The translations under genes and the position numbers were made by a program. This document shows positions 1,412-58,421 of a DNA stretch of 64,000 nt, piece by piece (within the stretch, counting starts at the first letter, position 1; the number at the start of each line of letters is the position of its first letter). This stretch comes from Azolla caroliniana. Lineage: Eukaryota; Plantae; Polypodiophyta. Location: contig JBHGNT010000007.1 in the NCBI GenBank assembly GCA_043228905.1, positions 17,484,001-17,548,000 on the forward strand. The letters run 5' to 3'. The notes under the pieces were generated by a model. It saw nothing but the letters and a program-made list of their open reading frames with translations, had not been told where the DNA came from and made no database searches.

Positions 1412-1789
1412 ACTAGAAATGGAAAGAGAGTTTATATTATAAGAGAGCAAGGATTACAAAGAGTAGGCTAAGGGGCTACAAACTGGTGTTGAACCGAATG
1501 AGTTGTGATGAATGAATAGACACCTATTTATAGGTCCTTATGGAGTATTCTAGAATGTTCTAAAATATTTTAGATATTTATGATATTTAATATAATCATG
1601 GAATATCCTAGAATGTTCTAGAATACTCTAGATTGTTGTAGAATACTCTAAATGTCTTGTAATAACTAATAATACATTTATTATAACTATACATCATATA
1701 TGTTAGTATAATGGTTAAAGGTCTAACATATAGACCAAGACGTCTTGGGCTCGAATCCTTGTAAGGCCAAAATGTATGTCGTCATGACA
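1267..1789 (-). repeat. 5' LTR of the Tcn1-like element
   Basis: Minus-strand termini TGTCATGAC...GTCACAACA (imperfect inverted repeat). TATAAATA at 1532-1525. (TC)n tracts in R/U5. Confidence 0.75.
1697..1769 (+). pseudogene. tRNA-like cassette inside LTR U3
   Basis: A-box-like TAGTATAATGGT (1704) and B-box-like GGCTCGAATCC (1748) at canonical tRNA spacing. Stems are degenerate. Confidence 0.55.
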
Positions 1790-32000: not shown

Positions 32001-35000
32001 TACATCAAAAGATCAAGGTGCGAATGCCACAAGCTTTGGCCATCATCTGCTTGAACTTGGAAGCCGACACTAGATGATCATATATAATGGCTTAGCCAAG
32101 TGGCCAGGCTCAGAAGAGCTCACATGTTTCCCACATGGAGGAAGGGAAAGCATAGTTGATTACCTAATAGGACACCCTGAAGCTACCCACATGGTTAACT
32201 CCTTCCGAGTGGCCCCATGCCCCATTGGTGCAGACCATAGCTTCCTATACTTTGAGCTAAAATGTGACATCTCCCACGCCACCAACTCTAGTCAACCAAC
32301 TAATCACACCATAATACATTTCACGCATGAGCTCACTGACATCTACTCTCGACATGTACAAGCCAATCTCTCCTCTTTTGATTCTTCCTTGCCTTTAGAG
32401 AACCTCACTACAGAACTCACACACATCCTTCACTCAGCAGCAACTAGTAGCTTCCCATGCACGAAAGGTTCCAATCCTAGTAGAATAGGGTCTATGCCAC
32501 AAAACAAGTGGTATGATGAGGATTGTAGAGAGTTGTATAGTCAACTTAAGGTGTCGCAACTTAGTGGTACTATTTCCTTAGTACAGGCTCACAAAGAGAT
32601 GTGCAAGATGACACGTCGTAAAAGACGAGCTTGGGAAGCATCTCAATATTGGGAACTCTACCATATGTTCATGAGTAGGGACTGCGCCCTTGCATGGAAG
32701 AGACTACGAGAACCAAGACCACAAACACCCATCGAGGATCCCAATATTTGGCATACATATATTGAGAGACTCTACCATGTCCTGAACCAACCACCCATTC
32801 CAATGCCTTCCACACCTCGACCTACCATGGGGACACTTTTCATGACCTCTAGGGTCACGAAGGTCATAAAAAAGTTACAACATAGGAAATCCATGGACCA
32901 CACAGGATTGCGAGCCGAGCACATCATATATGCTCGAGAGTGCCTAGCCTCCCTTCTCACTCTAATCTTCAACCGTGCCCTCACCGAGGGTTTTCCACCA
33001 CAATGGGCCATGAACACAGTGGCCCCTATACATAAAGGAGGGAACCCAATGGACCCAAATACATATAGGACCATTATGATAGGTCATACGCTCACTAAAC
33101 TATAGGGTGCAGTAATGGAAGCGGAGCTCAGTGAATATATGGAAATGTTAAGTCTTCACACACCTGAGCATGTTGGCTTTAGACAAGCCTTCTCCACTAT
33201 TGACCATATCTTCACACTTAAGTGCTTAATTGACCAAACGAAGGCTCATAAGAAGAAAATATATTGTTGCTTTATGGACTTCCGCAAAGCCTTTGACACG
33301 GTTCCTAGGGAGAGGTTGTTTGATAGACTTAAGAGCTTGGAGATACCAAATGACATGATATGGGCCATTTATGCCTTATATGAGCAAGTCTCTGGGTGCG
33401 TACAATGCCTAGGTGGCCTATCCGATTGTTTCACTAGCACCATTGGTGTAAAACAGGGTTGCCCCTTGTCACTGACTCTTTTTAGGATCTACATTGATGA
33501 GATCACTGATTTTATTGCTCGAAAGGGAGGCAAGGGAGTAGTTATTGGGGATACGCAAGTTAGTTTCTTACTCTATGCAGAAGACATTGTCTTGCTCTCG
33601 GAGTTGGAACACAACCTACAAAAGCATCTTAATGCCCTAGATGACTTTTGTACACAACGAGGATTGGTAGTGAATTTAACGAAACCTAAAGTCCTTATCT
33701 TTCATACATCGTCCCGAGTTAGGAGTAAATGTCACCTAACCCTCTCTCATAAACTAGTTGAGGTAGTGGGATCATATGTATACTTGGGAGTCACTTTTAG
33801 TGCTCGCTCAGGTAAATTCTCAATGACCCAGGCAACCAAAGATAGGCTAACGAGAGGGTATGCATCCCTCTCACTCTTAGAGAGACAATGCCACCAGGCA
33901 TACTTTCAAGAGCCACTGACTAGAGGATGGCTCTTCGACTCATTAGTGACCCCTTCCCTCATGTATGCATCAGTAGTATGGGCTCTAGGTCTACCATCGT
34001 TCATGTGGACGCAATTAGAGAGACCTTTGGTGACGATGTTATCACATCAACTCCGAAGCAAATCGACAGTACCGCATGACATTATTAGAGTAGAGTTTAG
34101 TCTACCCCCGATGTTAGTAGAAGCACTCTTTCAAATGGTAGTTTTTATTCATCATATACATAGCCAACCACAAGATAGGATATCTCGTCGAGCCTTTGAG
34201 GCATCCCGATCCCTACATGCATCTGGAGACACTAGCTCTTGGTATAACATTGTGGTGAGTTGGCTACTTGCAAACGGCATAGACATTAATAACCTACCTC
34301 CCCTTTAGTACAATCATGGGACTGATCAAACTCTAATCTCTCATGAAGACCGTAATAAAGTGATACGCCATGAAATATGGCAAATTTACACTCAATATAA
34401 ATGGATCACCCCACGAGAGCCACTCCCATCTAAAATGTTGTACTATAAGGAACACTTTTTGCACTTCTCTAAGTTAGGTTTTATTACACGACCAAGATAT
34501 CTAGATACATTCTTATCAAATGCACCAAGGGTGGCCATTGGACAACTTAGGATATCATCTCACCAACTTGAGATTGAGAATGGTCGAGCTAATAGAGTCC
34601 CTAGAGAGGAAAGGCTATGCATGTTATTGCACATAGAGATAGAGGATGAGTATCACTTCACATGCAAGTGCCCAACTTATGCCGAGATACAGGCGGAATA
34701 CCAAGACATATTAGGACCCTCTCCCACCCTCTCCAAACTATTAGATACCCCGAGTGTAAAAAGAGTAGGTAGGTATATCTTAGAGCTAAAACAACATAGG
34801 GAGAATAAATTACAAAGTGTTAATCATAACCCTTTTACTATTCATCAACATGTAACTAGTGTAATTTTTCAGGAACAAGGGGAGACAATGAATGTGGATA
34901 CACTTACACTGCTCGGCCTCTCCCTTGAGGAAGTAGAAATACAAAGAACAACCAAACACCCTCGGATGTTGGGCTTCAAAACAAGTCGACGTGGAGTAGA

Positions 35001-35160
35001 AAAGATTAAGAATATAAGGGAACGTGAGCTACGTCGACTAGAAGCTATGGTTGGGGTACCTTTTACATTGGGACCACGGGCCACATCCACATCGCAACCC
35101 TTTGACCTCCCGTTGCTCTTCAAGAGACTTGGATGGAAATGAAATTAGGCCTAGTATAAC
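29100..35160 (+). mobile_element. Near full-length RTEX-like LINE (ORF1 plus APE-RT-zinc finger ORF2), degenerate
   Basis: ORF1 coiled coil and IYLDEDLT..YRDG|RLIIND, split by a solo LTR. ORF2: LWNCNG, FLVETH, GDFNART, SIVDY..ADH, DFRKAFDTV, GVKQGCPLS, YAEDIVL, HQLEIENGR..RLC..EDEYHF..CP. Confidence 0.9.
29950..31354 (-). mobile_element. Solo LTR inserted in LINE ORF1
   Basis: TGTCGTG...CACGACA termini and 4-bp TSD ACGG. Removing it restores the ORF1 frame. Internal CCGGTTTC-rich subrepeats at 30650-31050. Confidence 0.85.
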
Positions 35161-40000: not shown

Positions 40001-42977
40001 GAGCTTGGAGGTACAAATATTCAGATATTGCTCTATGTGGACAACATCATAGTCTTTGAGTCACACACAGGACATGGCGAGGCATTGGATGACTTTATAC
40101 CTAGAGAGGATTGACATCAAACTCTGGGATACGACGATTCAAATGTTCCATACATCCAAATACATATTTCAAAATACCTTAATTAGCAGGGAAATAGGTG
40201 AAGGCTCCAAGCTTGTGTCTGTTTACTTGGGGATCACTTCGATAGCTACAGTTGACTATAGGATGCTTCTCTATTGCATAGGCAGTGTGATACAGTCATT
40301 TGGGGCTATGATACATTGGCAAGGTTTAAAAGGTAGTGCCACCTGTCACATTTGCAGCACTGTACCAAAGAGTTGCCTTTTGACACTTTGGTCACACTTG
40401 CTGGGTATACATACCAGAAACAAAGACCATGAATATTTTGGAATGCCTCACATGTGAACATTAAGTATGATTTACGAGAGTTCCTGAAAGTTTTCTCTAG
40501 CTTTAAACAATTCCTAACAAGGACAGAACATCCTCCATGACACTAGGTATGGTTTTTGTTCATCTACCTCATAACAGAACCAAAGCCATGGGAAATCAAA
40601 ATAGTGAAATATTGCAGTAGCTTAAATTTTCTTCTTAGCTTTTACATTTTATTTTTGTTTTGCTAGTTTAAAATCCGCCACTTACATAGTTCTGGAGGGT
40701 GCGGACACCAGATATTGTTACACATTGGCCTGTCAATAGGTCTGAGAGTACATGGACATGTATGCTTGTATGACTCGAATGTACCATTTAATTACCTATC
40801 ATTAGATGGTGAATAGATATTGTAGCGTGGTGCCCTAGGGATCTTTCCTTTACAAATTGCAAAGATTAGTGACCAATGCAAATTTTAGCAATTCCTTCCA
40901 AAGAAAGATCCAGAGATGCAGAGATATCTCTTACATTCAGGATCAGGAATATACTTTCCAGTAGAGGGTAATTAAACAGAATGAGAAGAACAAGAAGAAT
41001 CTGCCCTCAGCCTCAAGGATCTCCTCTTTGATGCAGTGCACCTGGGGGTAGCACTCCAGGAGGTAGAAGCACAAAGTGCATGTAGATAGCCTAGATTGTT
41101 GGGCTCAAGACACCGGGATTACACATTTAAGAGACCTAAGAGATTCACATCTGTAACTAACAGAAAATTGAGGTAAGAGTGAGTGACTGACATACATGAG
41201 CTCTAATGTAGTGCTCATTTTCAGAGAGTTCACAATGCAGCTGTCTCTACATGTGTTAACAACTAAATCTCTCACATGGACAGAGCTAGCTCTTAGTGCA
41301 TATTATCTACTATCCTACTCAATACAAATCTTTTATTATTGTCAGAATACATGAATTTAATTGAACATTGTGTAATTTGCCTCAAAAGATGAGGTCAGCG
41401 TTTCACAACGTTAATAAAGCATTGTGTATTTGTTTCGTTCTTAAGTGATTTTACTGTAGGTATTGTGCATTGAATGCTTGACTTTCTTTTCTATCAACCA
41501 ACATATATTTGATCTCAGTATTGTCTCTAACAGGGAAGTTTACAGAGATCTGAAAATCCAATGCAACCTTCTGAGGGGGAGTATCTCGGAAAACTCAGAA
41601 AGTTCTGAGAACCTGAGTTCTTTGGTGGAGGTGCAAAATATATCTATAACGAAGGAAACTTTAGAATCACGTAATGATTCACAAGGCAGCAGTGAAGGGA
41701 ATTCAGACGAGGATTGTAAAGAAGAGCCCATTCAAACAACCAATTCACTTGCATCAAACAAAATAACAATGAGTATAGGGTCCGAGGAGGAAGGAAAATC
41801 AGAAGGAAAAGTCATTTTTCTTGAATCAAACAAAGTAGAAGTAGCTGAGAGTGTTTGGTTTAAGGATGAAGGAGGAGAATCAAAAGAGGCAAGCATCTCA
41901 CTTGCATCAAATGAAGTAAAAGCAGTTGAGAGTTTAAATTCCTATGAGGGAGAAGAATCAAAAGAGAGGACTGCTTCTTTACTTGCATCAAACATAGTAG
42001 TCGAGAATGTTGGGTCCAAAGATGAAGAATCGAAAGTTAAAATCACTCCACATGCAACGAATATAGTAGTTGAGAATGTCGAGTCCAAAGAAGAAGAATC
42101 GAAAGTTAAAATCACTCCACGTGCAACGAACAAACTGAAGGTTGTCAAAGAAGAAGTATCCAAAGCATCTGAAGATTTCATTACATGGCAAAGGATCATT
42201 CGATTGGATGCAGTTCGAATGAATGCAGAATGGGTTCCTTATTCCCCAAGTCAAGCGAACGTGACCCAAGAAGTAGCTTGGGAGCTCGCTTCAAGTGTTG
42301 GACTGAAAGATGATGAACATTTAGAGCCTTGTCGGCAACATCATGCAGCTCGTCTAGTAAGTATATTAGAGGCATATGCTCTTTATGACCCAGAAATAGG
42401 TTATTGCCAAGGTATGAGTGATCTTCTATCCCCCTTTGTAGCCCTTCTTGATGAAGATTATGAGGCTTTTTGGTGCTTTGTTCAATTCATGAGCACTGCT
42501 CGGCATAACTTCCGAAGAGATGAAGTTGGTATACGTCGGCAACTTAACAAGATTGCAAACATTTTTAGAATAGGAGACCTGGGTCTCTATTCTCACTTCG
42601 AGAAAATGCAAGCCGAAGATTGCTTTTTTGTTTACCGGATGGTTGTGGTGCTGTTGAGAAGAGAGCTCACTTTTGAGCAAACTATTTCCTTATGGGAGGT
42701 CATTTGGGCAGAGAAGAAGGATGTGACATTGGGTGACATAAAACCATCTCGTTCTTCTTGGAAAATGAAGAAGAAGCAAAAGTCTACCGATGACTTGATC
42801 TTGTTTGTTATTGTAGCGGCAGTTCGACAAAGGAGGAAAGTGATTATTGCGAAATGTAATGGATTGGATGAAATTCTAAGGGAATGTAATAGTATGGCTG
42901 GACATTTGGATGTGTGGTCTTTATTGGATGAGGCCCGAGAGCTATTTTCAATTGTTAATGGTCGGATTAATGATTGA
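36803..42977 (+). CDS. TBC-domain Rab GTPase-activating protein (GYP7-like); exons ~36803-36990, 37646-37772, 38909-38958, 39065-39118, 41534-42977
   Basis: The exons join in frame through GT-AG introns: VAVAITAVAGVAVAVAIY / RRRKRTPLTQKQW..RRVRFG / GIDPCIRAEVWLFLLG / YELDSTRGERE / ...WQRIIRLDAVR...YDPEIGYCQGMSDLLSP...AFWCF. The start codon is uncertain. Confidence 0.92.
38050..38470. repeat. Intronic GTTGTAGATG-based degenerate tandem repeat
   Basis: Repeated ggtaaggagttgtagatgg and gatacgatggcaaggagttgatatgtgctaggg blocks in intron 2. Confidence 0.65.
39560..40460 (+). mobile_element. Highly decayed LINE RT fragment in TBC intron 4
   Basis: Remnants of KAFDTIP, GVKQG..S..LFGIY, ILLYVDNII and VYLGIT. 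Related to the 29100-35160 LINE. Confidence 0.7.
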
Positions 42978-43160: not shown

Positions 43161-43510
43161 ATGATTTTTAAATCAGAATGCATATAAAATGGGTAAATCT
43201 CAATCTATGTTGAGGGATAAAAGAACCAGCAAGGTGCATTCTCTATGCCAATAGATAAGATGGAGTTTTGGTCTATTATAAGCTAGTATTGTTTGGCACG
43301 GATGTTACACCTTTCTTGAAGCATGGTCATTATGGTCATGATTTTTAAATCAGAATGCATATAAAATGGGTAAATCTCAATCTATGTTGAGGGATAAAAG
43401 AACCAGCAAGGTGCATTCTCTATGCCAATAGATAAGATGGAGTTTTGGTCTATTATAAGCTAGTATCGTTTGGCACGGATGTTACACCTTTCTTGAAGCA
43501 TGGTCATCAT
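43161..43510. repeat. 177-bp near-perfect tandem duplication
   Basis: Units start atgatttttaaatcagaatgc at 43161 and 43338. Confidence 0.95.
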
Positions 43511-45180
43511 TGTCATCTTCTTTGGTTTCATGATCCGCATTAAAAATATGTTCAGTGTACTTCAAAAAATGTTTGTAGAACTCGAAACTTAAGTTACATC
43601 ATCCATAAATTCACTATTTTACTTTTTCTTTGTTACAAGCATCATTATACTAAATATGATTCTAATTGCCCATGGTTTACTTTTATGCCCATTGGCTTAA
43701 TTGAATGTAGTGCATGCTCCTAAAACAAATGGGATCCGTCATGGCTACATGCAAAGAATTGTGTATTGACAATTGGACAAGAGCTCAATGATAGAGCAGG
43801 ATGCATGATAAAGAGAATAGGACTCTAATTGAGAAGTGTAAGTCAGTGGATGATAAATATTTTTACATTGTATAAAATTGCAAGAAATTATATACAATGG
43901 AAAATGTATTTGATGTGAGATATTTTGCAGTTAGTGATAACTTAATAAAAAGGTATAACTATTTTTTGCACCCTGAATTATACGCTGTACAATAATTTTC
44001 CAAACCTCTTGCATGTTAAACTATAGAAACCTATTTCAAGAGGCATTCTTGAAAAAGCAATGAAGTTTGCTTTTTGGATGAAAACTAAATTGCGGTAAAC
44101 ATTTTGAAGACAATGTAACTAGAGGTAAGATTGAACGTGGTTTGCATGCCACATTTATTATCCATCTTAGTCTCTAGCAACAACCATGAAGAATATTCAA
44201 TTCTAGGGTGCCACCCTTATTCATGTATAGATCCCTTTAGGCCCAATAATGCAAATCTTTTGTTAAGCACGGTAAGTATGTATGCCTTTTCCTGTTGGGC
44301 CAAAGGATCTATGATTTTACAACAATTATGCTTTAATTAAGGACCACAATTGAAATGTGGACATGCTTCGACTATATCCTTCGATGATGACTTTTCAAGA
44401 GCAATTTGTGAGAAAAAGCATTTGTGATCTCCCAAACTATGATCATGATCCTAAATCAATCCTACTAAGGGTTGAACCTAGAGTGTTTAGTTTTGTAGAT
44501 TAGAGCCTTGTCCATTGGCTCATAGCCTATATGATCTATGATTTTCAATTAATTATGCTTTAATTAAGAATGCAATTAAAATACAAAGACATCTTCAACT
44601 AAATCCTTCAATGATCATGTCGAAATGACTTTTAAAGAGCATTTTTTGTGAAAAAAACATTTGTGATCTTTCAAACCATGATCATGACCTAAATAGACCC
44701 TACTAGGGGTCAAGCATGTAATCCCTACTTTCCTAGACCACCACCTTATCCATTGAGCCATGGGATCTATGATTTTTTATTGATTATGCTTTAATTAAGA
44801 ACCACAATTGAAATACATGAATATGATTTGACTCAATCCTTTTGAAATGATGTTGTTTAGACTTTTAACGAGCAATTGGCACGAAATAAACTATTTCTAT
44901 TCTCAAACCACAACATCCTTATTAATCAACGCATTCAATGAAAGATGTATAGGATCACTCTTTGTAGACATTTACAAGTAATGTTATGATTAAAGTCATG
45001 GACATTGATGCATTCAAGGAAAGAGGCATATTGAGAATTTTCTTTGTAGACATTTGATATTAATGTGCATGATCCCTGATCATCGTAGTTTTGATATTAA
45101 TGATTATTCATCATTGCACTTGTGATCTCCCAAACTATCATCTTGATCCTAGATCAATCCTACTAGGGTTCGCACCTAGA

Positions 45181-45285
45181 TTTCACTTGCGCCAAAGGCT
45201 CCCACTTATTCTACACCTCTCAAGTCATTTCACAAAGTCAGACTAGAGTCAAGCTCAATAGGGTCTTCTTTCCACATTGATTCTT
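45181..45285 (-). rRNA. 25S/26S rRNA fragment (pseudogenic)
   Basis: Reverse complement reads GAAAGAAGACCCTATTGAGCTTGACTCTAGTCTGACTTTGTGAAATGACTTGAGAGGTGTAGAATAAGTGGGAGC, a conserved LSU rRNA segment. Confidence 0.9.
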
Positions 45286-45323
45286 CTATTTTAATAATTA
45301 AAGCATAAGAAAATTAAGTCATA

Positions 45324-45396
45324 GATCCAATGGCCCAATGGATAAGGTGTTAGACTATGAAACCAGAGATTTTAGGTTCGACCCCTAGTATGATCG
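45324..45396 (+). pseudogene. tRNA-Arg(ACG)-derived copy (anticodon mutated to ATG), inverted relative to the array
   Basis: GATCCAATGGCCCAATGGATAAGGTGTTAGACTATGAAACCAGAGATTTTAGGTTCGACCCCTAGTATGATCG, 73 nt. Closely resembles plant tRNA-Arg(ACG). Confidence 0.85.
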
Positions 45397-45522
45397 ATTA
45401 TGATTAGGTTTTTCATTGGGAAATTTAAAAGAGAACGATGACACGATGTATTGCGTGATGTTGAATTAAAAATGTGTATAAGAAATGTGCTTGTGATAAA
45501 AGTAGATTAATGCAAGAATAAA

Positions 45523-45682
45523 CCCTTGCTTCTGGTCTTAAGGTGCACTTGCGCGCTGATTCAGGCTGAAGACATTGTCAGGTGAGGAGTTTGGTTGGGG
45601 GGGCACATATGTTAAGAGATAATGCAGGTGTCCTAAGATGAGCTCAACGAGAACATAAATCTCATGTGGAACAAAAGAGTAA
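45523..45682 (+). rRNA. 25S/26S rRNA fragment (pseudogenic)
   Basis: GAAGACATTGTCAGGTGAGGAGTTTGG...GCAGGTGTCCTAAGATGAGCTCAACGAGAAC, the LSU segment just downstream of the 45181 fragment. Confidence 0.9.
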
Positions 45683-47429
45683 TACAAGGACACACTTCAA
45701 CTAAATCCTTCGATGATAATGTTGAAGTAACTTTTAAGGAGCAATTTGTGTGAAATAAGCATTTGTGATATCTCAAACCATGATCATGATCCTAAATAGA
45801 TCATAGTAGGGTCAAATTGGAATCTCTTGTTTTGTAGACCATTGCCTTATTTATTGGGCCATAAAATCAATGATTTTCAATTAATTATGCTTTAATTAAG
45901 ACTGCAATTAAAATACAAAGACATGCTTCAACTAAATCCTTCGATGATCATGTTGACCTAACTTTTCAAGAGCCATTTTTGTGAAATAAGCATTTTTTAT
46001 CTCTCAAACCATGATCATGATCCTATATAGATCCTACTCAAGGTCAACTGTGAATATGATTCGACTAAATCCTTTTGCAATCATAGGGTAGACTTTTAAT
46101 GAATCATTTGTGTGAAATAAAATGTTCTTGTTCTCAAACCATGACACCCTTATTAATCAATACAATCAAGGAAAGAGACAAGTATAGGATTACTCTTTCT
46201 AGACATTTACAACATCCTACTAGGGGTCAAACTGAACCTAGAGTCTCTAGTTTCGTACACTAGCCCCTTATCCATTGGGCCATAGGATATTAGGATCTAC
46301 AATTTTCTATTACTTATGCTTTAATTAAGAGCTAGAGTTGGAAAACAAATACAAGGACATGCTTTGACTATATGATGACTTTTAAGGTGCAATATATGTG
46401 ACATAAGCATTTGTGATCTCCCAAACTATGATGTTGATCCTAAACCAATCCTACTAGGGTTCGAACCTAGAGTTCTTGGTTTTGTAGCCCATCGTGTTGT
46501 CCATTGGGCCATAGGATCAATTATTTCTAATTAATTATGCTTTACTTAAGAATGCAATTAAAATACAAACACATGCTTCTACTAAATCTTTCGGCGAGTA
46601 TGTTGACTTGACTTTTTAAGCAGCAATTTGTGTGAAATAACCATTTGTGATCTTGCAAACCATGATCCTAAATAGATCTTGCTATGATTCAAAGCTAGAA
46701 TATTTGGTTTCATAGACCACTGCCTTATCCATTGAGTCCGAAGATCTATGATTTTCGATTGATTATGCTTAAATTAAGAACCACAATTAAAATACCATGT
46801 AATATGATTCGACTAAATCCTATTGCAATCATGTTCATTAGACATTTAACGAGCAATTACATGAAATAAACTATTTCTATTCTTAAAGTGCAACATCCTT
46901 ATTAATCAATGCATTGAACGAAAGAGACATGGATAGGATTACTCTTTGTAGACATTTACAATTAATGCGATGATTCAGAGTTGTGGAAATCAATGCATTC
47001 ATTGAAAGAGGCATATATAGCATTACTTTTCATATAGATTTAATATTAATGTGCATGATCCTTGATCATCGTATTTTGTATATCAATGACTCTTAATCAT
47101 TGCACTTATGATCAAGCTCAAACTATGATTATGATCCTAAATCAATCATACGAGGGGATGAACCTAGAATATCTCGTTTCGAAGACCAATGCCTTATCCA
47201 TTGGACCATAAGATCTTTTAGTCGATAATGTTATCATGATGGTGCACCTCCAAAAATGCCAATATACATATCACTTAGTATGCTTTGCTATGGTCTATCG
47301 CACTTCATCAATGTGTGTGGGGGATTGTTCCATAACTCTCCCTAAAGAGTGGACAAAACAAATAGGTAAGTTTGCTACTCTGTTACTTAATCCCAAATGT
47401 ATAAATAAAAGTATAAGTTGTGATAGTAG

Positions 47430-47845
47430 ATAATTAGCTATATAACCAAGTTCATAGTACATTTGTAGCTAATTAGCTAAGCTGGAACCCCTAACCACTA
47501 AATAGCAAAGTTCGTAGTACATTGGTAGCTAATTAGCTAAATATCTAAGGTTTTGGAAGAATGATAGCTAAATAACTAAGGTCGTAGAATAGTGGTAGCT
47601 ATATAGCTAAAGTTGTGGAAGAGTAGTACCTAAATAGCTAATTAGCTATATAGCTAAGGTTGTGGAATAGTAGTAGCTAAATAACTAGTTGGTATCGTTA
47701 ATCGCTAATTAGCTATGACCATAATAGAGTAGTAGCTTAGGTAAGACCATAGTACAATAGGCTAAAATCATGGTTAATTGGTAGCTAATTAGCTAAAGTG
47801 ATAGTAAGAGTTAGTTAGCATTACCAATCGCTAATTAGCCTATAC
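47430..47845. repeat. TAGCTAATTAGCTA-rich repeat (MITE-like), also at ~19470-19745
   Basis: More than 15 TAGCTA palindromic motifs. Confidence 0.6.
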
Positions 47846-49380: not shown

Positions 49381-50234
49381 TGTTGGGAAACATGTCCCTC
49401 CGGATGGGAAGAGAAGTACCGTGTTGGTGAGTATCTCGGCCGAGGCCAAAAATGAAATCGTTTCGGAAGACTATAATTGCAAATAGTCTAAAATGCCCCT
49501 TGTGGGTTATACTTGTAAATAGCCAGAAAGTTGCTTTTGTTTATAAGCAATTAGGGAAAACTTTAGTAGGCAGAGCCGATCATTATTGTAAAGTTAGAAC
49601 GAGGTAGTTGCCTCTGTAACCATGAGTGAGAGTGTAACTCTATACCCGTCTGTCAGACGAAGGAGAACTCGAGGTCGTTGCCTCTGATTTCTGTATTTAT
49701 ACTTCCTCTCTTCTATAGTGATTTGTTTACTTGGGGTTCGTGGACCCCCGTGGGTTTTCCCATTTCGGGTTTTCCACATAAAATATCTGTATCTTTCTGT
49801 CTTCACATTTTTTCTTCTGTGTACGAGTTCTTGGTTTCTGCACACCAATACGAACGTGCAACCGGTTGTGGTCGGTTGATTCCTAACAAAGTGGTATCAG
49901 AGCGATGGAAGACTCGTTTGGCAACATGTTTAAGCTAACCGGCCCCAACTACTCAGTGTGGAAGTCGAAGATGAGAGATATGCTCGTGTGCAAAGACCTT
50001 TGGCTGTTGGTGCAGTTCGGAGATAAAAGACCAGACAAGATCGATGCAACGACTTGGGAAGTGTTGCATCTGAAGGCGACCGCATATATAAGGTGTTTTA
50101 TAGACATGAGTCTATACAACAACTTCAGCGAAGAAACAGAAACAAACGTCCTATGGAAGAAGATCGGCGTCATGTTTGAAAACAAGAACGCCTTGAGCTG
50201 AGTCTCAGTAGTTCGAAAAATCGTGAGGCTCCAG

Positions 50235-51109
50235 TGTCGTGAAGATTTCCGACTACGGTGAGAAAACCGGGAGGGACAAATAAAATGGGGATGTGCAACA
50301 TTGCACATGCACTTGTAAATTTGTGTAATAAGAATAAGTAAACAAAATGTAACGGGAAGGGTAATAATCTAAGGTGTTAAAGGTGCACCACGAAGTTCGT
50401 GAGGCATAAATGTGATGTGCACTTTTTAGAGTAGAATGAGTAGTGAGCTCGTGTAAAAAGTAAGAGAGAGGAGAGGTAAAAAGTAGAGGGAAGATAGGCT
50501 AAGAATTTATAGAGATAGAATCATACATTATGTAAGAGAGAGTTAATGGGCTAGTGGATAGTCGCATTGACTTCTAGTTAGAGGTGCACAGTTCAAATCT
50601 AGTCTTATAGTGTAGCGTGATTTAAGGAATTTTATTCCTTTTTTTGCATTAAAGACAAAATTGGCGACCCCCCTTCCTTTTTTCCTATAAAAGGAGGTCG
50701 AGGGGGGCTCATTTGGGTTGCCTATTTTGAGTGAGAGAGGCATACCACTTAGGTCGAGGGTTTCCTATTCGGTTTTAGGGTTTTGGTTAGGGTTTCTTCT
50801 AGGGTTTTCTTCTTGGGTTTCCTTTGGGGTTTTACTATACTTCTCTACTTGCTTATCCGGTTAGGGTTTTCTTGTAGTCATTGGGTGCGGCCTATGCGGC
50901 CATGGTTGTAATGCGTGTGGTGTTCTTCTTAATACAAACCATTTGTGTATCTTGCCTCCATCATATTCTCGTTCAATGTTAATGTTTTATTCCTTCTCCT
51001 CTTGAGCTAAGCTTCCATTTCTTGTAAGCTCTTTCTCTTCTACTCCCTAGTCCAAGACCCCTGTGGTCCTGCCTCAGATCCTACACACGCTCGCGGAATA
51101 ATCGCGACA
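50235..51109 (+). mobile_element. Solo LTR nested in Copia gag
   Basis: TGTCGTG...CGCGACA with TSD CCAG. Removal restores VRLQYQDGSGMAKHINAF. TATAAAA at ~50686. Confidence 0.88.
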
Positions 51110-51255
51110 CCAGTATCAGGATGGCTCCGGTATGGCGAAGCACATCAATGCCTTCCAAGGATTGATGAACCAAACCACCTCTCTAGAAGTACCTCTGGCT
51201 GACGAGGTATTAGCATTGTTGTTGTTGGGTTCCCTTTCGGACAGTTGGGAAATGT

Positions 51256-52023
51256 TGTCGTAGTGTAATTCACACACTATGTGAAAAATTGCATTTTTTC
51301 TCTCTCCGAATAGGACATGGAGTACCCGGTGAGAACTAGATGAAGAAGGCCGGTGAGAGTCTCTCACAGGATGAAGAGACATATTTGTAAATAGAAGAAA
51401 GTATAAAAATATATATTACATGCATAGGGCAAGATTCAAACCTTGCACCTCCATATTTATAATGTAAAGCCTTACTATTACACTAACATATCATTAGTGT
51501 TAAAAAAGTAAACATTCCACATAGAAAGGTAAGTTCACGCTAGGATAAACTTTAGTTAGAAGAAAACGCATGATAAAAGAAAAAGCTACGCATGCACATG
51601 TAGCATGCATGAACACCATAGTCGATAAAAATGCATCAAGTTAGAAAAAGTAGGATCACTTTAGAAAAAGCATAGAGTCTATCTATAGAAAAAGCATGGA
51701 TTGTTAAGACTCTCTCATCACTATATAAGGATGAGGAGCACAATGTAATAAGTGTGTGAAAAACTTGGAAATTGGATATATTTCCTAAAACACCAATTAA
51801 TATAATATATTCGTGGGATTCATGAATTTGTTATCAAAATTGTCTCTTACTATCTAAATATTGATTAAATACACTAAACTCGTGGGATTCACAAGATTCA
51901 TAACTTACCTATCTTTCTACCTATTCATTACTAACCTTATCTCATATTCTTCTTTATCCTAGTCCAAAACCCCAGTGGTTCCCACCCGACTCACGCAACG
52001 ATCCGGTGCCGAAAGGCACGACA
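51256..52023 (+). mobile_element. Solo LTR nested in Copia gag
   Basis: TGTCGTA...CACGACA with TSD ATGT/ATGC. Removal restores DSWEMLVVTLGN. TATATAA at ~51722. Confidence 0.85.
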
Positions 52024-54317
52024 ATGCTAGTTGTCACGTTGGGCAACGCGGGACCGGAAGGGAAACACCTATCCCTAGAGCAGGTGAAATCGAGCTTGCT
52101 AAACAAAGAAGATCGTCGGAAGGATCGAGACTCCAATGCTGACTAGAAGGCCTTAGCCACAGAAGGTGACATGATTCGGGGAAGAAGCCGAAATCAATGT
52201 TCCTAGAACCGAGATAAGTCGGGGACCAGGTTGAAGTCGAGGGGGAGACCCACGTGCTTCTATTGTGGGAAACCGGGGCACTTCCAGAAAAACTGCTAAC
52301 ACTTTTGAAAGGAGAAAGGGGGTGCTGATCATGAAGAGCTGAAGAAAATCCCGGATAGAAAGAACACCTCAGTAATCGCCGCGAGTGAGGAGGAGTTGTT
52401 GCTCATCAGTGAGCAAAACGAAGTCAATCTCGCCGGCGAAGAATCAACATGGGTGGTCGATTCGGGTGCGTCATTCCACCTAACCCCTGACCAAAAGTGC
52501 TTCTCATCCTACAGAGCCGGAGATCTCGGATCCGTAAAGATGGGAATGAAGGAGCATGCCGAATTGTCGACATTGGAGATGTGTGTTTGGAAACCTCAAC
52601 CAGGTGCAGACTCGTGTTGAGAGATGTACGACATGTTCCAGAGGTTTGATTGAACCTAATATCAGCCGCTCGGATAGATGATGAGGGCTAACACAAGTAG
52701 CATCCGGAACGGTGTCATGAAGTTCTGTCGAGGAAGCTTGATTGTGGCTTGAGCTCGGAAGACCAACACACTATACACAATGAATGCTCGAATATGCCAA
52801 GGAGAAGCAGACGTGGCAGCCGATACGGTCGGTGAACTGTGGGACAGGAGGTTGTGCCATATGAGCCAAAAGGGGATGTGAAAGCTTGCCGAGGACAACC
52901 TCATTCCAAAGGTGAAGAACGTACAACTTGAGAAGTGCACTAATTGCTTGGCCGGCAAGTAGAATCGAACATCCTTCTGAACGTGGCCCCCGATGAGGAA
53001 GAAAATGTCATTTGAGCTCGTGCATACGGACGTATGCTATGTTGACACGAAGTCACATGGTGGTTCACAGTATTTTGTGACCTTCATTGATGATTGTAGT
53101 CGGAAGTTATGGATTTCTGTGCTGAAGACGAAGGATAAAGTGTTATCCGTCTTCAAAGAGTTCCATGCGAGGGCCGAGAAGGAAACCAAACGAAAATTGA
53201 AGGCAGTCCAAGCAGACAATGCCGGAGAGCAATGTGCACCGTTCGAGGAATACTGCCCAAATCAAGGAATCTGGCTCAAGTATACCGTGCCGAAGACGCC
53301 AGAGCTAAATGGGTTGGCGGAGAGAATGAATTGGACCATAATGGAAAGGGTCCGAAGTATGCTTGCACATGCTAAGTTACCGAAGACGTTCTGGGCTGAG
53401 GCGTTGATGACGACAACGTACGTAATAAACCGATCACCCTCAGTACCCTTGGACGGTGATATTACACAAAGGGTGTGGAGTGGCAAAGACGTATCGTACC
53501 GACATTTGAGGGTGTTCAGTTGTCTTGCTTATGTGCATGTGGCAAAGGATGAGAGGGGAAAGTTGGACCCCAAATCTCAGCCATGAATATTTCTCGGCTA
53601 CAGTAATGATGAATTTGGCTATCGACTATGGGACTTAGCCGAGAAGAAAGTGATTAGGAGCTATGACATTGTCTTCACGGAGGAAAAGACAATAGTCGAC
53701 TAGGAAATTGAGAATAAGTCTCCAACTACCGAATCGAACCGAGTCAATGCTCGGCCGAATCGAGTAGAAGCCGATTCGATCGATTTAATATTCGGCAAAA
53801 TTGAGAACTGACTAAAGAACGAGGGAAAATGGCCGAACAAGGAACCAAATTTGACTCGGCCGAAGAAGTCGAAGAAGAACCGACCGTGCCGAATGGAGGC
53901 CGAAGATACCCCCTTATAGAAAGGAGGGCCCCCCGAAGATTTCCGGATGAAGGGCGTGTCCTGCTAACCGATGAGGGGGATCCGGAAAGCTTTGAAGAAG
54001 CTAAGGAAGATACCCACAACCGAAAGTGGTTGAGTGCCATGCAAAAGGAGATGGATTCCTTGCATGAGAACCACACATATGAACTGACCGAACTGCCAAG
54101 AGGAAAGAGGGCACTTCGGACTAAATGAGTATACAAGTTGAAACCGGGAGATGGGGGGAATCCACCCAGGTACAAAGCACGAATCGTCGTGAAAGGTTTT
54201 CAGCAGAAGAAGGGTGTCGATTTCGACGAAATATTTGCCCCAGTCGTAAAGATGACGTCAATCAGAACCTTGTTGAGCATCGCGGCCAACATGGATGTCG
54301 AAGTCGAGCAATTGGAG

Positions 54318-57300
54318 TACATATATTGTTCCATGATGCCCAACTCATACCTAGTCTTGATTCTTTCTTCCACAATGTATACTTAAGTGAACGAGCTAAT
54401 TGATCAAGTGATTTCTTTGTCCAAGGTAATAATGGCAAAAAATAAGAAATCATTGGAATCATTATAGCTTGTACCACTTTGAGACGAGTACTAAACGGCC
54501 ATGCTTGAGACTTCCAATACATAAATTTGTCTAAAATGGTCCCCGATATCCAATTCAAACTTTGAGACGTTGAGGTATCAACACCAATAAGGTAACCTAA
54601 GTGCCGACACACATTGCCTTGATCCAATATTTGGCCACACCATCCAAGATCAACCAAATCACTTTCAGTGCATCTAATGAGCATTGACTTTCGCATATTT
54701 ATATTGAATCCTAACGCCAATGCAAACACATTCCACACCTCCATGGCTTTTGTTGTATTATCAGGTATCACTTTGAGAAATAAGAATGAATCATCGGCCA
54801 ATGCCTGAGCTATCAATTGTTTTCCTAATGGCAGAGCTAGTCCAACTATTTCCCCACATGTTGCCAACTCATGTATCTTCACCAAAATCGGGTGTGTCGT
54901 AATTGCAAATAACAATGGACTCAATGGGCATCCTTGTCGAAGTGAGCTTGCCAATGGTATTGCCTTAGTCACTCCACCATTTAACATAATGTGTGACACT
55001 GCACCCAATCCCACCAACAAGGGGATGCGGGACACCCTTAAAGAGTTGAGTAATAAAAGACCAACTTACATGATCATATGCCTTCTTGATATCTAGTTGT
55101 ATCATTACCATTTGTTGTTTGGATTCTTTTGCATAATCCACTGCCATTTGCCATTTGCCCCTAAACCTTCTGAAGTCTATTTGCAATTACTTTGGCAAAA
55201 ATCTTATACAAACCACCCATTAATGATATCGGTCTCCATTGAGCAAAAGACATAGGAGATGCAACTTTTGGTATAAGCTTAACTAGACCTATGTTCCATG
55301 AATCAGGCATTTTACTAGAACTCCACACTTCTTGGCATAACATTGTTAGAGGTCCTTTGAGTTGTTGTACAAATGCTTTAAAAAACTCATTTGTAATGTC
55401 ATCCCAACCTGGACTTTTATCAACTAAGAGATGTGACAATACACATTCAACCTCCTCCTCTTGTATATCCTCCTCCAAGGCCAACATGACATGTTGCCCA
55501 CCAATCGTTGTAACTGAGTTCAAGAACATTGATCTCGCTTGTGTTATGTCATCATTTAGATTACTTTCTTGCCCAAAAATATTCTTGAAATTCTTAACAC
55601 ACTCATCAATAATCACTTGTGGGTTTGTATTTAAAGTTCCATCAATCTCTACGCATCCCACATTCATCCTAGCATGAGATGCATGCAACCCATGGAAAAA
55701 CTTATGTGAATGACCGTTGTGATCATGTACTTCATTTTTCATAGCCATCACCCGTGATTGTTGATAAGTACAAACCTCTAACACTTGTAAAGCGTGTGAC
55801 AATGCCTCTTGAATATCCAACAACACATCATCAAATGTACATTTCACCAACAATGCATTACATATGTCTAGAAATTGTTGGATTGAACTCATCTTTTGTT
55901 TACGGATGGATGCTTGATGAATTCCATAATATCGTGTAAAGCGTTGAATATTAAAGAGGCAAACATCCCATGATGAAAGACCATGAACATTGACTTGTCT
56001 AGTAAATTCTCCCACCAATTGTCTCATAGCATGTTTAAAGTTATTATGTCCAAGAAAAGATGAAGCAAACCGCAATGGTTGTTTTCCCAATAATGATCTA
56101 AAATCATCCATACTTTGATGTGTGCATTCCAACACAACCGGGAAGTGATCTAATAATCCAATCACCCTATACACTTACATAGTCATAAGCGATGGCAAGA
56201 ATGTCTCATCATGCATAATGTAAATTCAATCCAATCTACTCCAAGTTTATCTATATTGTGCAGATTGAAATGTATAACCAACATCATGTCCATTGATCCA
56301 AGTCCATGCATCATACCTTATGACCTCCATCATAAAACAAATCCCAAACCTCTCGTTCAGGAGCATCCATGAGGCTATGCATCGAAGTAGATTGGCCCAC
56401 CTTTGAACACATATTAAAATCACCTAACAAAAAACCTACTCTTCCATGACGTAAAACTTGATGTAAACCTCTCCAAAGATTGATACGTTGCCCTGCAACA
56501 TTTGGTGCATAAATACCTACCACCCAAATTTTATTCCCTTCATAATTAACTTCAACCACCAAAAACCGACCATTATCATCTCTTTGAGCCACTATTGGTT
56601 TCAAGATGTCCCTTACAATAAGCATTACGCCTGAATACAACCCTCCAATGACTCCGGCATAAAACACATGATATTGCTTATACGGAAGAGAAGACCCAGA
56701 CTTAGCATGCTCCTTATGACATAATACATCCCATTGACTAATAAAAATAGTTTTCCACATACCATATCGCTTAGATGAAGAACAAATTCCCCTTACATTC
56801 CATGTGACTATTTTCATCAATCACTAATTAGGATGTTTGTTGGCATGTTCACGTTCTCGTTGTGCCAATATCTTGGGCATATCCCCGAAATAATCACTTA
56901 AGACTGCAAATGCATTTTGCACAGATGGTTTATGTCTATCGGTGGATATCATTGTACCCTGTGAACTATTTCTTTTCCAATTTTGTTTCTCTAATGGTAA
57001 ATTGATTTTACTATTCTTATCAATCCTAAGGTTGAAAGGTTTTGTCCCTTGATTAGAATGTTGGTACAGTGAACCTTGCCACGGTTTTGACCTTCTTTTG
57101 AATTGATCATAATTAGGTGCATAAGACACCCCCATAGGATCTTTCGAGGAACTACCCCTCTCTTGGTCATGATGTTCATGAACTTTCTCTTTTTGGTACC
57201 TTGGATGATTCACCTTAGAGACCACCTTAATCCACGACCCATCATCATCTATTAAGTCTTGTCTTCTTTCTTCAATATATTTGTCTTTATGTTCCAAAAT

Positions 57301-58421
57301 AGCGACACATTTACCTTTGTCAGCATTTGCTTCCTTAGTTTTCGGCACCTCATTATCATTTGTGACATACTTAACACATCACCATGGGAAGTATTAGGCA
57401 TCTCTACAACCGGTGTTTGTTGACATTCTGCCATGAAATGGCCCAAACCACCACATCAGAAGCAATGACTGGCAAATGATCCCCAATGCAATTGGCAACA
57501 GAATGACCTCATCTCCTCAATCTTTATGTTTAGCCACAAAGGCCTTTTTTTGTTGTATTCCATAGCATACATAACTTATATATATTATATGCTTTGTCAT
57601 TTGGGGCTATTATCACCTTTCCCAATTGTTCCATTACACCTTGAATTATAGGCCACAAAAAAGAAAATTTACACTATACTTCCACCCATATTGGACACTC
57701 TTGTTTTAAAATTTCTTGAAATTCAGCTAGGTTCGAAACACAACCTCAAAAAAACCTCGTGGACCTTTGTACACATCTTCCACGTTGTTCTTACCTACCA
57801 TTGTATTTAACCATTGCGCCACCCAATGTATGAAAGGATTTTTTCCCATAAAGGAGCAAATAATGCCTCTCTCATGAAACATTGAAAGCGTCTTTAAAAT
57901 TTCCCTACGCGGCATCTCCACCTCTACGATCTCATCCCCTTCAATGTTGGCCACCATCTCTATATCATCCGGTAAAATCTCATGGAGTGCTTCATTAGCA
58001 ACTACATGCATAGCTTCCCAGTAATGATCATTCCTCTTCTCCTCACCTTCTCCCATAACATGTGCATAGGATGGTTTTCATATCATATCTATATCCTCCT
58101 CATGCATATTATTAGTTCCAATCTTTTGTTTCTTCACAAGAACATCATCTTCTCCTTCTTCTCGTTGGCTCTCTATTTGTCTTGCATTTATACATGATCC
58201 ATCTCTTCCATAGATTCTGTGTTCCGATTATAACGAAAAGGAAAATAATAAGATGATAATTAACCTAGAATCAACAATATGACATCCGAACTGTTTGTAG
58301 AAGAAAAATGTTGCAACACTCTCCCATGATGTAGCCACGCCTCCTCCTCCTCCTCCTCTTCCTCTTCTTACAGGGCATCTCTGTCACTCTATCTCTCCCT
58401 CTGTCTCTCTCCTTCTTCTCC

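What the first reader, a model, noticed from the sequence alone, without database searches (positions are those of the whole stretch)
44283..47215. Higher-order satellite built from tRNA-Arg(ACG) genes
Seen: about 11 copies of a 73-nt tRNA-Arg(ACG)-like unit (consensus GATCCTATGGCCCAATGGATAAGGC...CTACGAAACCAGAGA..CTAGGTTCGA.CCCTAGTAGGATCG), each in a conserved AT-rich spacer. Spacing runs short-short-long twice: 44457->44695 (238), ->45155 (460); and 46214->46446 (232), ->46674 (228), ->47143 (469). This implies a ~930-bp three-tRNA higher-order unit. Only the 46214 copy keeps the ACG anticodon; the others show CpG-type decay. There are no poly-A tails or TSDs, so these do not look like SINEs. 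Inference: an orphaned piece of a large tandem tRNA-gene array or tRNA-derived satellite, possibly a Pol III/TFIIIC boundary beside the TBC gene or a small-RNA source.
Basis: partly seen in the sequence, partly recalled or inferred. Interest (0 to 1): 0.8.

Follow-up and report, generated by a model that had tools for sequence, protein, structure and literature searches.

The report
Dead tRNA-Arg array in a fern
This 3-kb stretch holds eleven broken copies of an arginine tRNA gene and is a decayed offshoot of a family of long, near-identical tandem tRNA arrays found intact on two other chromosomes of this plant (likely a water fern); the local copies are likely non-functional, but the intact arrays would help explain why such ferns carry so many tRNA genes.

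Summary
Observation confirmed. Window 44283-47217 holds 8 full-length and 3 partial tRNA-Arg copies. They form three copies of a four-tRNA block (TCG-X-X-ACG), broken by deletions, an inserted 25S rDNA piece and an inversion. The copies decay neutrally: 37 broken pairs against 38.7 expected, and tRNA parts diverge faster than spacers (29% vs 15%). A boundary or functional role is therefore not supported. The source family is alive elsewhere in the genome: homogeneous arrays of a 1.18-kb unit carrying tRNA-Arg(ACG) plus tRNA-Arg(UCG) on C1 (31 units), C9 (43) and three unplaced contigs. There are 450 exact motif hits against 5 dispersed ACG genes. The UCG gene is an anticodon switch on the ACG body (221 copies against 3 native-type genes found). 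In living arrays tRNAs are conserved over spacers (1.4% vs 8.4%) yet lack nearby poly-T terminators. Relatives hold the same unit, head to tail in three of four runs. Expression is untested. Tandem tDNA clusters are known in plants; an Arg ACG/UCG, terminator-less, birth-and-death family was not found in my searches, nor in earlier scan notes. Verdict: ordinary relic pointing to an interesting array family.

The parts
44283..47217 (-). Whole decayed tRNA-Arg array relic (three copies of a TCG-X-X-ACG block, rearranged)
47143..47215 (-). Block 1, slot 1: tRNA-Arg pseudogene, TCG anticodon intact, B box broken, 4 broken pairs; homology to the array starts 2 nt upstream of it
   Evidence: Rfam 30.6 bits
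46747..47142 (-). Long spacer of the 469-bp unit: the array's TCG-to-ACG short spacer with an internal ~84-bp duplication
   Evidence: alignment; TRF 84-bp x1.8
46674..46746 (-). Block 1, slot 2: pseudogene, ACG decayed to ATG, followed by a TCG-type trailer (chimera, inferred)
46446..46518 (-). Block 1, slot 3: pseudogene, ACG decayed to ACA (ARAGORN labels it Cys); A and B boxes intact, D-stem broken
46212..46289 (-). Block 1, slot 4: ACG anticodon kept, 5-nt insertion in the T arm; followed by a deletion into block 2
46029..46054 (-). Block 2, slot 2: 3' fragment (T arm and acceptor strand) of a tRNA copy
45798..45868 (-). Block 2, slot 3: heavily decayed copy (ACA)
45523..45682 (+). 25S (LSU) rDNA fragment 2, 90% identical to this genome's rDNA
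45287..45522 (+). Inverted segment: end of a short spacer, the block 2 slot 4 copy, and ~125 bp of the ACG trailer (start of the array's long spacer)
   Evidence: 72% over 187 nt to the C9 unit; alignment
45324..45396 (+). Inverted tRNA-Arg pseudogene (ATG), A and B boxes intact, 5 broken pairs
   Evidence: Rfam 33.4 bits
45180..45286 (-). 25S (LSU) rDNA fragment 1, 95% identical; lies 54 nt upstream of fragment 2 in intact rDNA
45155..45180 (-). Block 3, slot 1: T-arm/acceptor fragment with TCG-type trailer
44695..44767 (-). Block 3, slot 2: pseudogene (AGG)
44457..44529 (-). Block 3, slot 3: pseudogene (ACA)
44283..44309 (-). Block 3, slot 4: 5' fragment, end of the relic

Best explanation
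The stretch is a decayed member of a family of tandem tRNA-Arg(ACG)+tRNA-Arg(UCG) gene arrays that survives as homogeneous 1.18-kb-unit arrays on chromosomes C1 and C9 of the same genome, and the local copies are likely non-functional pseudogenes. Shown: homology of tRNAs and spacers to the living unit; three copies of a four-slot block; neutral, methylation-type decay; the rDNA insertion and the inversion. Inferred order of events: (1) a piece of an older array variant was seeded at this site by ectopic insertion or repair (flanks are not shared with other loci); (2) unequal crossing-over between the 91%-identical ACG and UCG genes removed the long spacer and made ACG-anticodon/UCG-trailer chimeras, and a ~135-bp deletion made the ~230-bp unit; (3) the TCG-X-X-ACG block was amplified three times; (4) homogenisation stopped and CG/CHG methylation drove decay; (5) later a ~320-bp 25S rDNA piece entered one spacer and a ~340-bp segment was inverted. 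The family thus likely evolves by birth and death of whole arrays. The living arrays likely keep their tRNA parts under selection, but whether they are transcribed is untested.
For: Intact arrays: C9:18389004-18439744 (43 ACG + 44 TCG), C1:25118101-25154377 (31+31), C324 (29+29), C120 (127 hits), C343 (55). Unit identity is 99.8-100% within arrays and about 90-93% between the C1 and C9 types. Window spacers align to the array short spacer and share a ~36-bp insertion with the decayed locus C9:18.608 Mb, their sister in the tree. Neutral decay: 37 of 160 pairs broken vs null 38.7+/-5.3; between blocks tRNA 42 of 146 vs spacer 103 of 666 differ, p=0.0003. Living arrays show the reverse: 2 of 146 vs 84 of 1000, p=0.001. 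CpG o/e is 0.42 here vs 1.44 in the living unit, with the same low CWG (0.29 vs 0.21-0.36). rDNA pieces differ at 2 of 132 A/T sites vs 29 of 288 in the tRNA copies, so the insertion is younger; the spacer rejoins across it. Intermediate stages exist: decayed TE-interrupted array edges and small decayed clusters at C1:14.405, C9:18.246 and C9:18.608 Mb. No flank is shared between the window and six other regions except repeat matches 4-7 kb away.
Against: The seeding step has no positive signature (no target-site duplication seen), so death in place of an old large array fits equally well. The sister relation to C9:18.608 Mb could be partly convergent CpG decay. Slot 1 carries ACG-type bases at positions 13 and 43, so ACG/TCG typing of decayed copies is imperfect. 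The tRNA-versus-spacer contrast in living arrays could come from gene conversion among tRNA copies rather than selection, and the arrays' missing terminators and less AT-rich upstream regions argue against ordinary expression. Genome searches score only 40 candidates each, so other relics may be missed.
Confidence: 0.85

Rival explanations
1. The relic is kept as a TFIIIC-bound boundary or small-RNA source next to the TBC gene.
For: Lies 1.3 kb behind the TBC stop codon at 42977; copies 46446 and 45324 keep A and B boxes; tRNA genes act as barriers in yeast (PMC13578239, section 21).
Against: Boxes are not significantly better kept than other positions (p=0.31), pairs are broken at the neutral rate, and tRNA parts evolve faster than spacer. 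The same review says no such function has been described in plants.
Confidence: 0.05
2. The whole family is a selfish tRNA-derived satellite: the living arrays are silent repeats homogenised by recombination, with tRNA parts kept alike by gene conversion and apparent compensatory changes produced by CWG deamination. This agrees with the best explanation about the window and differs about the living arrays.
For: No T4 run within 100 nt of either tRNA in any of five array units; upstream AT 0.52-0.58 vs 0.74-0.86 in dispersed genes. The paired stem changes (50-64, 27-43) are C-to-T/G-to-A changes at CWG sites, which are depleted in the unit. Arabidopsis clusters are mostly silent (PMC7544208).
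Against: Array tRNAs have 0-1 broken pairs and 62.7/66.4 Rfam bits. The two tRNAs stay distinct from each other while each is near-invariant between arrays. In runs of four related organisms the tRNA parts are laid at far higher summed depth than the spacer (depth is not copy number).
Confidence: 0.35
3. The units are SINEs or a tRNA-carrying non-autonomous transposon (TRIM/Cassandra-like, Helitron) and the window is an insertion cluster.
For: Homology begins within 2 nt of the UCG gene's 5' end both in the window and at C9:18.608 Mb, as a retroposed Pol III read-through transcript would; one solitary UCG-type copy without spacer lies on C8.
Against: No poly-A tail or TSD seen; 42 of 42 matches to the long spacer (40 of 253 candidates scored) lie in tRNA-array loci; the unit has no long internal repeat besides the two tRNAs and no ATG-started ORF over 72 aa; other relics begin inside the long spacer; the two loci with the same 5' boundary may share one ancestor.
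Confidence: 0.06

Closest known systems
Arabidopsis Ser-Tyr-Tyr (SYY) tDNA cluster (PMC7544208: abstract and Results part 1 read; PMC12308677: abstract and outline only)
   Same: Regularly spaced multi-tRNA unit repeated in tandem in one orientation (27 times over ~40 kb there; 31-43 units over 36-51 kb here); cluster-specific isodecoder bases; methylation.
   Different: SYY keeps AT-rich promoters and poly(T) terminators, while these arrays have no T4 within 100 nt. There is one SYY locus; here there are two living chromosomal arrays plus several dead ones. The isotype is Arg, and one partner arose by anticodon switch.
Plant tDNA homo/heteroclusters surveyed in PMC13578239 (section 21 and passages), PMC13437025 (passages, supplement hits) and PMC12652284 (passages)
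   Same: Local tandem amplification of single isotypes or small modules; Ceratodon modules repeated up to 37 times.
   Different: Clusters named in the passages read are Pro, Ser-Tyr, Cys, Gln, Ala, Ile, Leu, Val, Glu and Phe, not Arg. The list of same-amino-acid, different-anticodon tandem pairs in PMC12652284 lacks Arg, and that paper has no occurrence of 'fern' or 'Azolla' in its main text. Land plants are described as mostly dispersed, whereas here array-type copies are about 99% of the exact motif hits for the Arg(ACG)-body family in the assembly.
Azolla filiculoides tRNA gene excess (7,848 genes, PMC13437025 Table S1; >10,000 tRNA-like sequences, bioRxiv 10.1101/2021.12.21.473619, passages)
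   Same: Likely the same plant group (inferred); many intact copies plus many decayed ones.
   Different: Those papers attribute the excess to genome duplication and repeat content; tandem arrays with birth and death are not mentioned in the passages read. I did not test A. filiculoides annotations directly.
Anticodon switching (Yona et al. 2013, PMC3868979, passages)
   Same: A first-anticodon-position change turns one isoacceptor body into another (here A34 to T34).
   Different: Here the switched gene was amplified to 221 exact-motif copies against 3 native-type Arg(UCG) genes found, and alternates strictly with its parent.
5S rDNA arrays and rDNA orphons (orphons recalled; 5S described in PMC13578239 section 21)
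   Same: Pol III gene arrays in concerted evolution, with dispersed decaying fragments.
   Different: The gene is a tRNA pair; transcription of any subset is untested.

Membership tests
Tandem tDNA cluster (PMC13578239 definition) | 5 or more tRNA genes within 5 kb, repeated in one orientation | tested here: met
   Window: 11 tRNA-like copies in 2.9 kb, 10 on one strand, counted as pseudogenes. Living arrays: 8-9 genes per 5 kb.
Tandem tDNA cluster (PMC13578239 definition) | Intact cloverleaf and anticodon (window copies) | tested here: not met
   7 of 8 copies have 4-8 broken pairs; the eighth has a 5-nt T-arm insertion; 2 of 8 keep an Arg anticodon of the family.
Tandem tDNA cluster (PMC13578239 definition) | Intact cloverleaf and anticodon (living arrays) | tested here: met
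   0-1 non-pairs, the same C13-A22 as in dispersed genes; Rfam 62.7 and 66.4 bits.
Arabidopsis-type tDNA cluster | AT-rich upstream region and short poly(T) terminator retained | tested here: not met
   First T4 at +104 to +546 in five array units vs +1 to +26 in 8 of 8 dispersed Arg genes; upstream AT 0.52-0.58 vs 0.74-0.86.
Arabidopsis-type tDNA cluster | Methylated and silent, or tissue-specifically active | not testable with these tools
   No methylome or tRNA-seq at hand; the mutation spectrum indicates past CG and CHG methylation in the window.
Higher-order satellite | Multi-monomer block repeated, equivalent monomers closer than neighbours | tested here: met
   Equivalent units are sisters, 99/96 and 100/98; 80-81% identity.
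Higher-order satellite | Ongoing homogenisation, high copy number | tested here: not met
   Three blocks, 82% identical over 856 columns, two of them truncated.
tRNA-derived SINE | Dispersed copies with fixed head-body-tail, A-rich or simple tail and TSD | tested here: not met
   Copies are tandem; no tail or TSD seen at the relic's ends; spacer matches only at array loci among those scored.
TRIM/Cassandra-like tandem element | LTR with internal PBS and PPT, shared termini between loci | tested here: inconclusive
   No long internal repeat other than the tRNAs; termini differ among loci. PBS and PPT were not searched systematically.
Anticodon-switched isoacceptor | Body closer to another anticodon family than to its own | tested here: met
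   Array UCG gene is 67 of 73 identical to the array ACG gene; the three native-type Arg(UCG) genes have a different body.

The most novel reading that the evidence does not exclude
Water ferns run a rDNA-like system of terminator-less tRNA gene arrays. An ACG gene and its anticodon-switched UCG twin are held under selection in a 1.18-kb unit and are read as long read-through precursors in at least some tissue, supplying most CGN-decoding tRNA. Whole arrays are born and die at new chromosomal sites, and the same holds for Lys(UUU), Arg(UCU) and Ile(UAU) clusters. This, not whole-genome duplication, explains the record tRNA gene and pseudogene counts of Azolla, and the window is a fossil of one such array.
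Probability: 0.3. Interest if true: 0.7.

Novelty: new variant of a known kind. Interest (0 to 1): 0.46.

Why it matters
The window's copies are pseudogenes, but they expose a gene family whose structure can be tested. Current reviews treat land-plant tRNA genes as mostly dispersed, leave the Azolla excess to genome duplication and repeat content, and call the role of clusters unresolved (PMC13578239). Here a few dispersed genes with normal terminators coexist with hundreds of array genes that carry diagnostic bases, so one tRNA-seq run can tell whether arrays contribute. The family shows living arrays, decaying edges and dead relics in one genome, a direct view of array birth and death. It also warns annotators that decayed ACG copies get labelled His, Cys, Gln or SeC.

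Tried and rejected
Expression: no RNA holder was listed for the array unit. Two runs guessed to be RNA gave no laid contig, and one run of unknown kind gave one contig at depth 2; this is no evidence either way. Run X13 gave two small pieces and is not counted as a holder. A hidden snoRNA or third RNA in the spacer: Rfam at E<=10 on one unit gave only tRNA, a reverse-strand tRNA look-alike family and an E=8 match. Link to 45S rDNA units: no tRNA-Arg copy in 10 kb of rDNA contig C570. Shared carrier transposon or homoeologous flanks: none between the C1 and C9 array flanks or between the window and six regions. A recalled angiosperm Arg(UCG) motif found nothing; a generic pattern then found 3 native-type genes, a lower bound. 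TRF does not report the array because copies are too diverged. Scaffold-gap artefact at array ends: no N in the C9 and C1 stretches read. Literature: searches found no paper describing these arrays. The main supplement PDF of Li et al. 2018 (PMC6786969) was too large to read. I recall, unverified, that it notes tRNA-Arg and tRNA-His as the most abundant types and some clustering in Azolla and Salvinia, which would lower novelty. Supplements of bioRxiv preprints were not seen.
Full report
Observation. The window (G000:C7:17484001-17548000) holds 8 full-length tRNA-Arg-like copies between 44457 and 47215, seven on the minus strand and one (45324-45396) on the plus strand, 55-64 matches to an intact copy of 73 nt. 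Three fragments (44283-44309, 45155-45180, 46029-46054) bring the count to 11. The reversed window gives no hit at E<10. Three copies pass the Rfam tRNA cut-off narrowly and ARAGORN calls two.

Host. The neighbouring exon encodes a RabGAP-TBC domain whose best named relative is from the fern Ceratopteris (77%). With a 523-Mb assembly and chromosome-sized contigs up to at least C22, a water fern such as Azolla is likely. This is inference; the chromosome number 22 for Azolla is recalled.

The source family. A search of the genome with one window unit led to homogeneous arrays. The unit is 1,179-1,185 bp and carries tRNA-Arg(ACG) and tRNA-Arg(UCG) in one orientation, 330-349 and 831-852 bp apart. 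Counts read here are C9 87 genes over 51 kb, C1 62 over 36 kb, and the unplaced contigs C324 58, C120 127 and C343 55. The unplaced contigs may be haplotypes or extensions of the two placed arrays, as C808 is a 96% copy of C9:18.60 Mb, so only 149 genes are safely placed. Exact motif counts in the assembly are 450 for both genes together, 221 for the UCG gene and 5 for the dispersed ACG type. Units are 99.8-100% identical within arrays and fall into two types, C9/C324 and C1/C120/C343, about 90-93% alike. The UCG gene is 67 of 73 identical to the ACG gene and unlike the three native-type Arg(UCG) genes found: an anticodon switch.

Signs of constraint on living arrays. Between C1 and C9 units, tRNA parts differ at 2 of 146 sites and spacers at 84 of 1000 (p=0.001). 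Cloverleaves are intact. Contigs from runs of four related organisms (B, D, E, F) lay on both tRNA parts at far higher summed depth than on the diverged spacer, and three of the four runs show the head-to-tail joint; such depth is not copy number. Against ordinary function, no unit has a T4 run closer than 104 nt to either gene, and upstream AT is 0.52-0.58. All 8 dispersed Arg genes examined have T4 within 26 nt and AT 0.74-0.86. The paired stem changes are also what CWG deamination would give. Expression could not be tested.

Anatomy of the window relic. Read on the minus strand, the first copy keeps TCG and is followed by the array's short spacer, lengthened to 469 bp by an ~84-bp duplication. 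Two ~230-bp units follow, each a tRNA with an ACG-derived anticodon, ~35 bp of UCG-type trailer, a ~135-bp deletion and the end of the short spacer; the fourth copy keeps ACG. This block occurs three times: 47215-46212, 46211-45287 (first slot deleted, last slot inverted) and 45180-44283. Equivalent units of blocks 1 and 3 are sisters (16 rows, none left out). Two 25S rDNA fragments, 54 nt apart in intact rDNA, flank the inverted copy. Turning 45180-45522 round joins them and restores one ~230-bp spacer around the insert. The inverted copy alone carries the ACG trailer of the living unit (72% over 187 nt).

Decay. C-to-T and G-to-A changes hit 18 of 64 CG sites and 10 of 28 CHG sites, but 20 of 202 CHH sites. 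Broken pairs match a context-aware null (37 vs 38.7+/-5.3), boxes are not protected (p=0.31), and tRNA parts of equivalent copies differ more than spacers (28.8% vs 15.5%, p=0.0003). The rDNA pieces are much less decayed (2 of 132 A/T sites), so they came later. CpG o/e fell from about 1.44 in the living unit to 0.42, while low CWG was inherited.

Mechanism. Shown: membership of the array family, the block structure, neutral decay, insertion and inversion. Inferred: seeding at a new site, chimera formation by unequal exchange between the two paralogous tRNAs, local amplification, loss of homogenisation, methylation. Other stages of the same cycle are present: TE-interrupted decayed edges at the upstream end of both placed arrays, and small relics at C1:14.405, C9:18.246 and C9:18.608 Mb. 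Flanks are not shared, which argues against a carrier transposon. It does not separate seeding from death in place.

Comparison. It works like a fossil of an Arabidopsis SYY-type cluster (PMC7544208; PMC12308677 abstract). It fails that family's terminator feature and, in the window, the intact-gene feature. Surveys read in passages list no Arg cluster and no fern array, and ascribe the Azolla excess to genome duplication and repeats. Nine paper searches found no description (listed under Tried and rejected), but the main supplement of Li et al. 2018 was unreadable and may mention tRNA-Arg abundance. Earlier scan notes held nothing on this sequence or place.

Verdict. The finding as given is a real but non-functional relic. 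Its value lies in the living family it points to, a new variant of tandem tDNA clusters whose expression is an open and easily tested question. Interest 0.46.

Noticed in passing
L095-L099 (C5:17.915-18.025 Mb), L110 (C16:18.116 Mb), L100 (C11:0.694 Mb), L102-L104 (C22:1.43-1.51 Mb), L106-L108 (C4:19.51-19.58 Mb), L101 (C2:20.109 Mb): Further tandem tDNA clusters: Lys(TTT) (368-bp unit x17), Arg(TCT) (~690-bp units), Ile(TAT). A T4 run within 25 nt occurs in 1 of 51 Lys/Asn, 1 of 33 Arg(TCT) and 2 of 7 Ile copies, against 15.7% of random positions. Loci were picked from the 62 best Rfam matches, so the sample is biased.
   Followed up: partly
C9:18388506 (L018) and C1:25154597 (L048): Both placed arrays are polar: the downstream end is 100% identical up to a sharp junction followed by a short imperfect copy of nearby array sequence (repair-like), while the upstream end decays and is split by retroelements.
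   Followed up: partly
L014 331-1508; L096; L100; L103: Living units are CpG-rich (o/e 1.4) but CWG-poor (0.2-0.36); the other tDNA clusters are also CWG-poor (0.25-0.45) against 0.70 in generic DNA. Suggests CHG without CG methylation; unexplained.
   Followed up: partly
window 47217 and L028 (C9:18607874): Two relics begin within 2 nt of the UCG gene's 5' end with unrelated upstream DNA: common ancestry, recombination at a tRNA gene, or retroposed read-through RNA.
   Followed up: partly
L140 4617-4689 (C8:1545617-1545689): Solitary decayed UCG-type tRNA without any array spacer.
   Followed up: yes
L100, L102-L108: Arg(TCT) clusters occur in a genome where an earlier scan note reports Gypsy elements with Arg(UCU) primer sites; a link between primer demand and these clusters is an untested idea.
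   Followed up: no
window 1697-1769: Weak, isolated tRNA-like sequence (55% to a window copy; nhmmer E 2.7), possibly an old pseudogene or SINE head.
   Followed up: no
window 43161-43516: Recent 177-bp tandem duplication (98%) just behind the TBC stop codon.
   Followed up: no
window 41460-42977: Long open frame ending in the RabGAP-TBC domain, with a Glu/Ser-rich stretch containing a 69-bp duplication before it.
   Followed up: partly
window 31393-35142, 49887-54400, 54262-58077, 59768-63962: Broken retroelements: RT-bearing LINE-like (+), integrase-bearing Copia-like (+), a second LINE-like on the minus strand (no Pfam hit for the frame tested; by motif recall), and RT/RNase H/integrase Gypsy-like (+).
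   Followed up: partly
window 47427-47830: Short imperfect 31/47-bp repeats rich in a TAGCTA motif right of the relic, likely transposon subterminal repeats.
   Followed up: no
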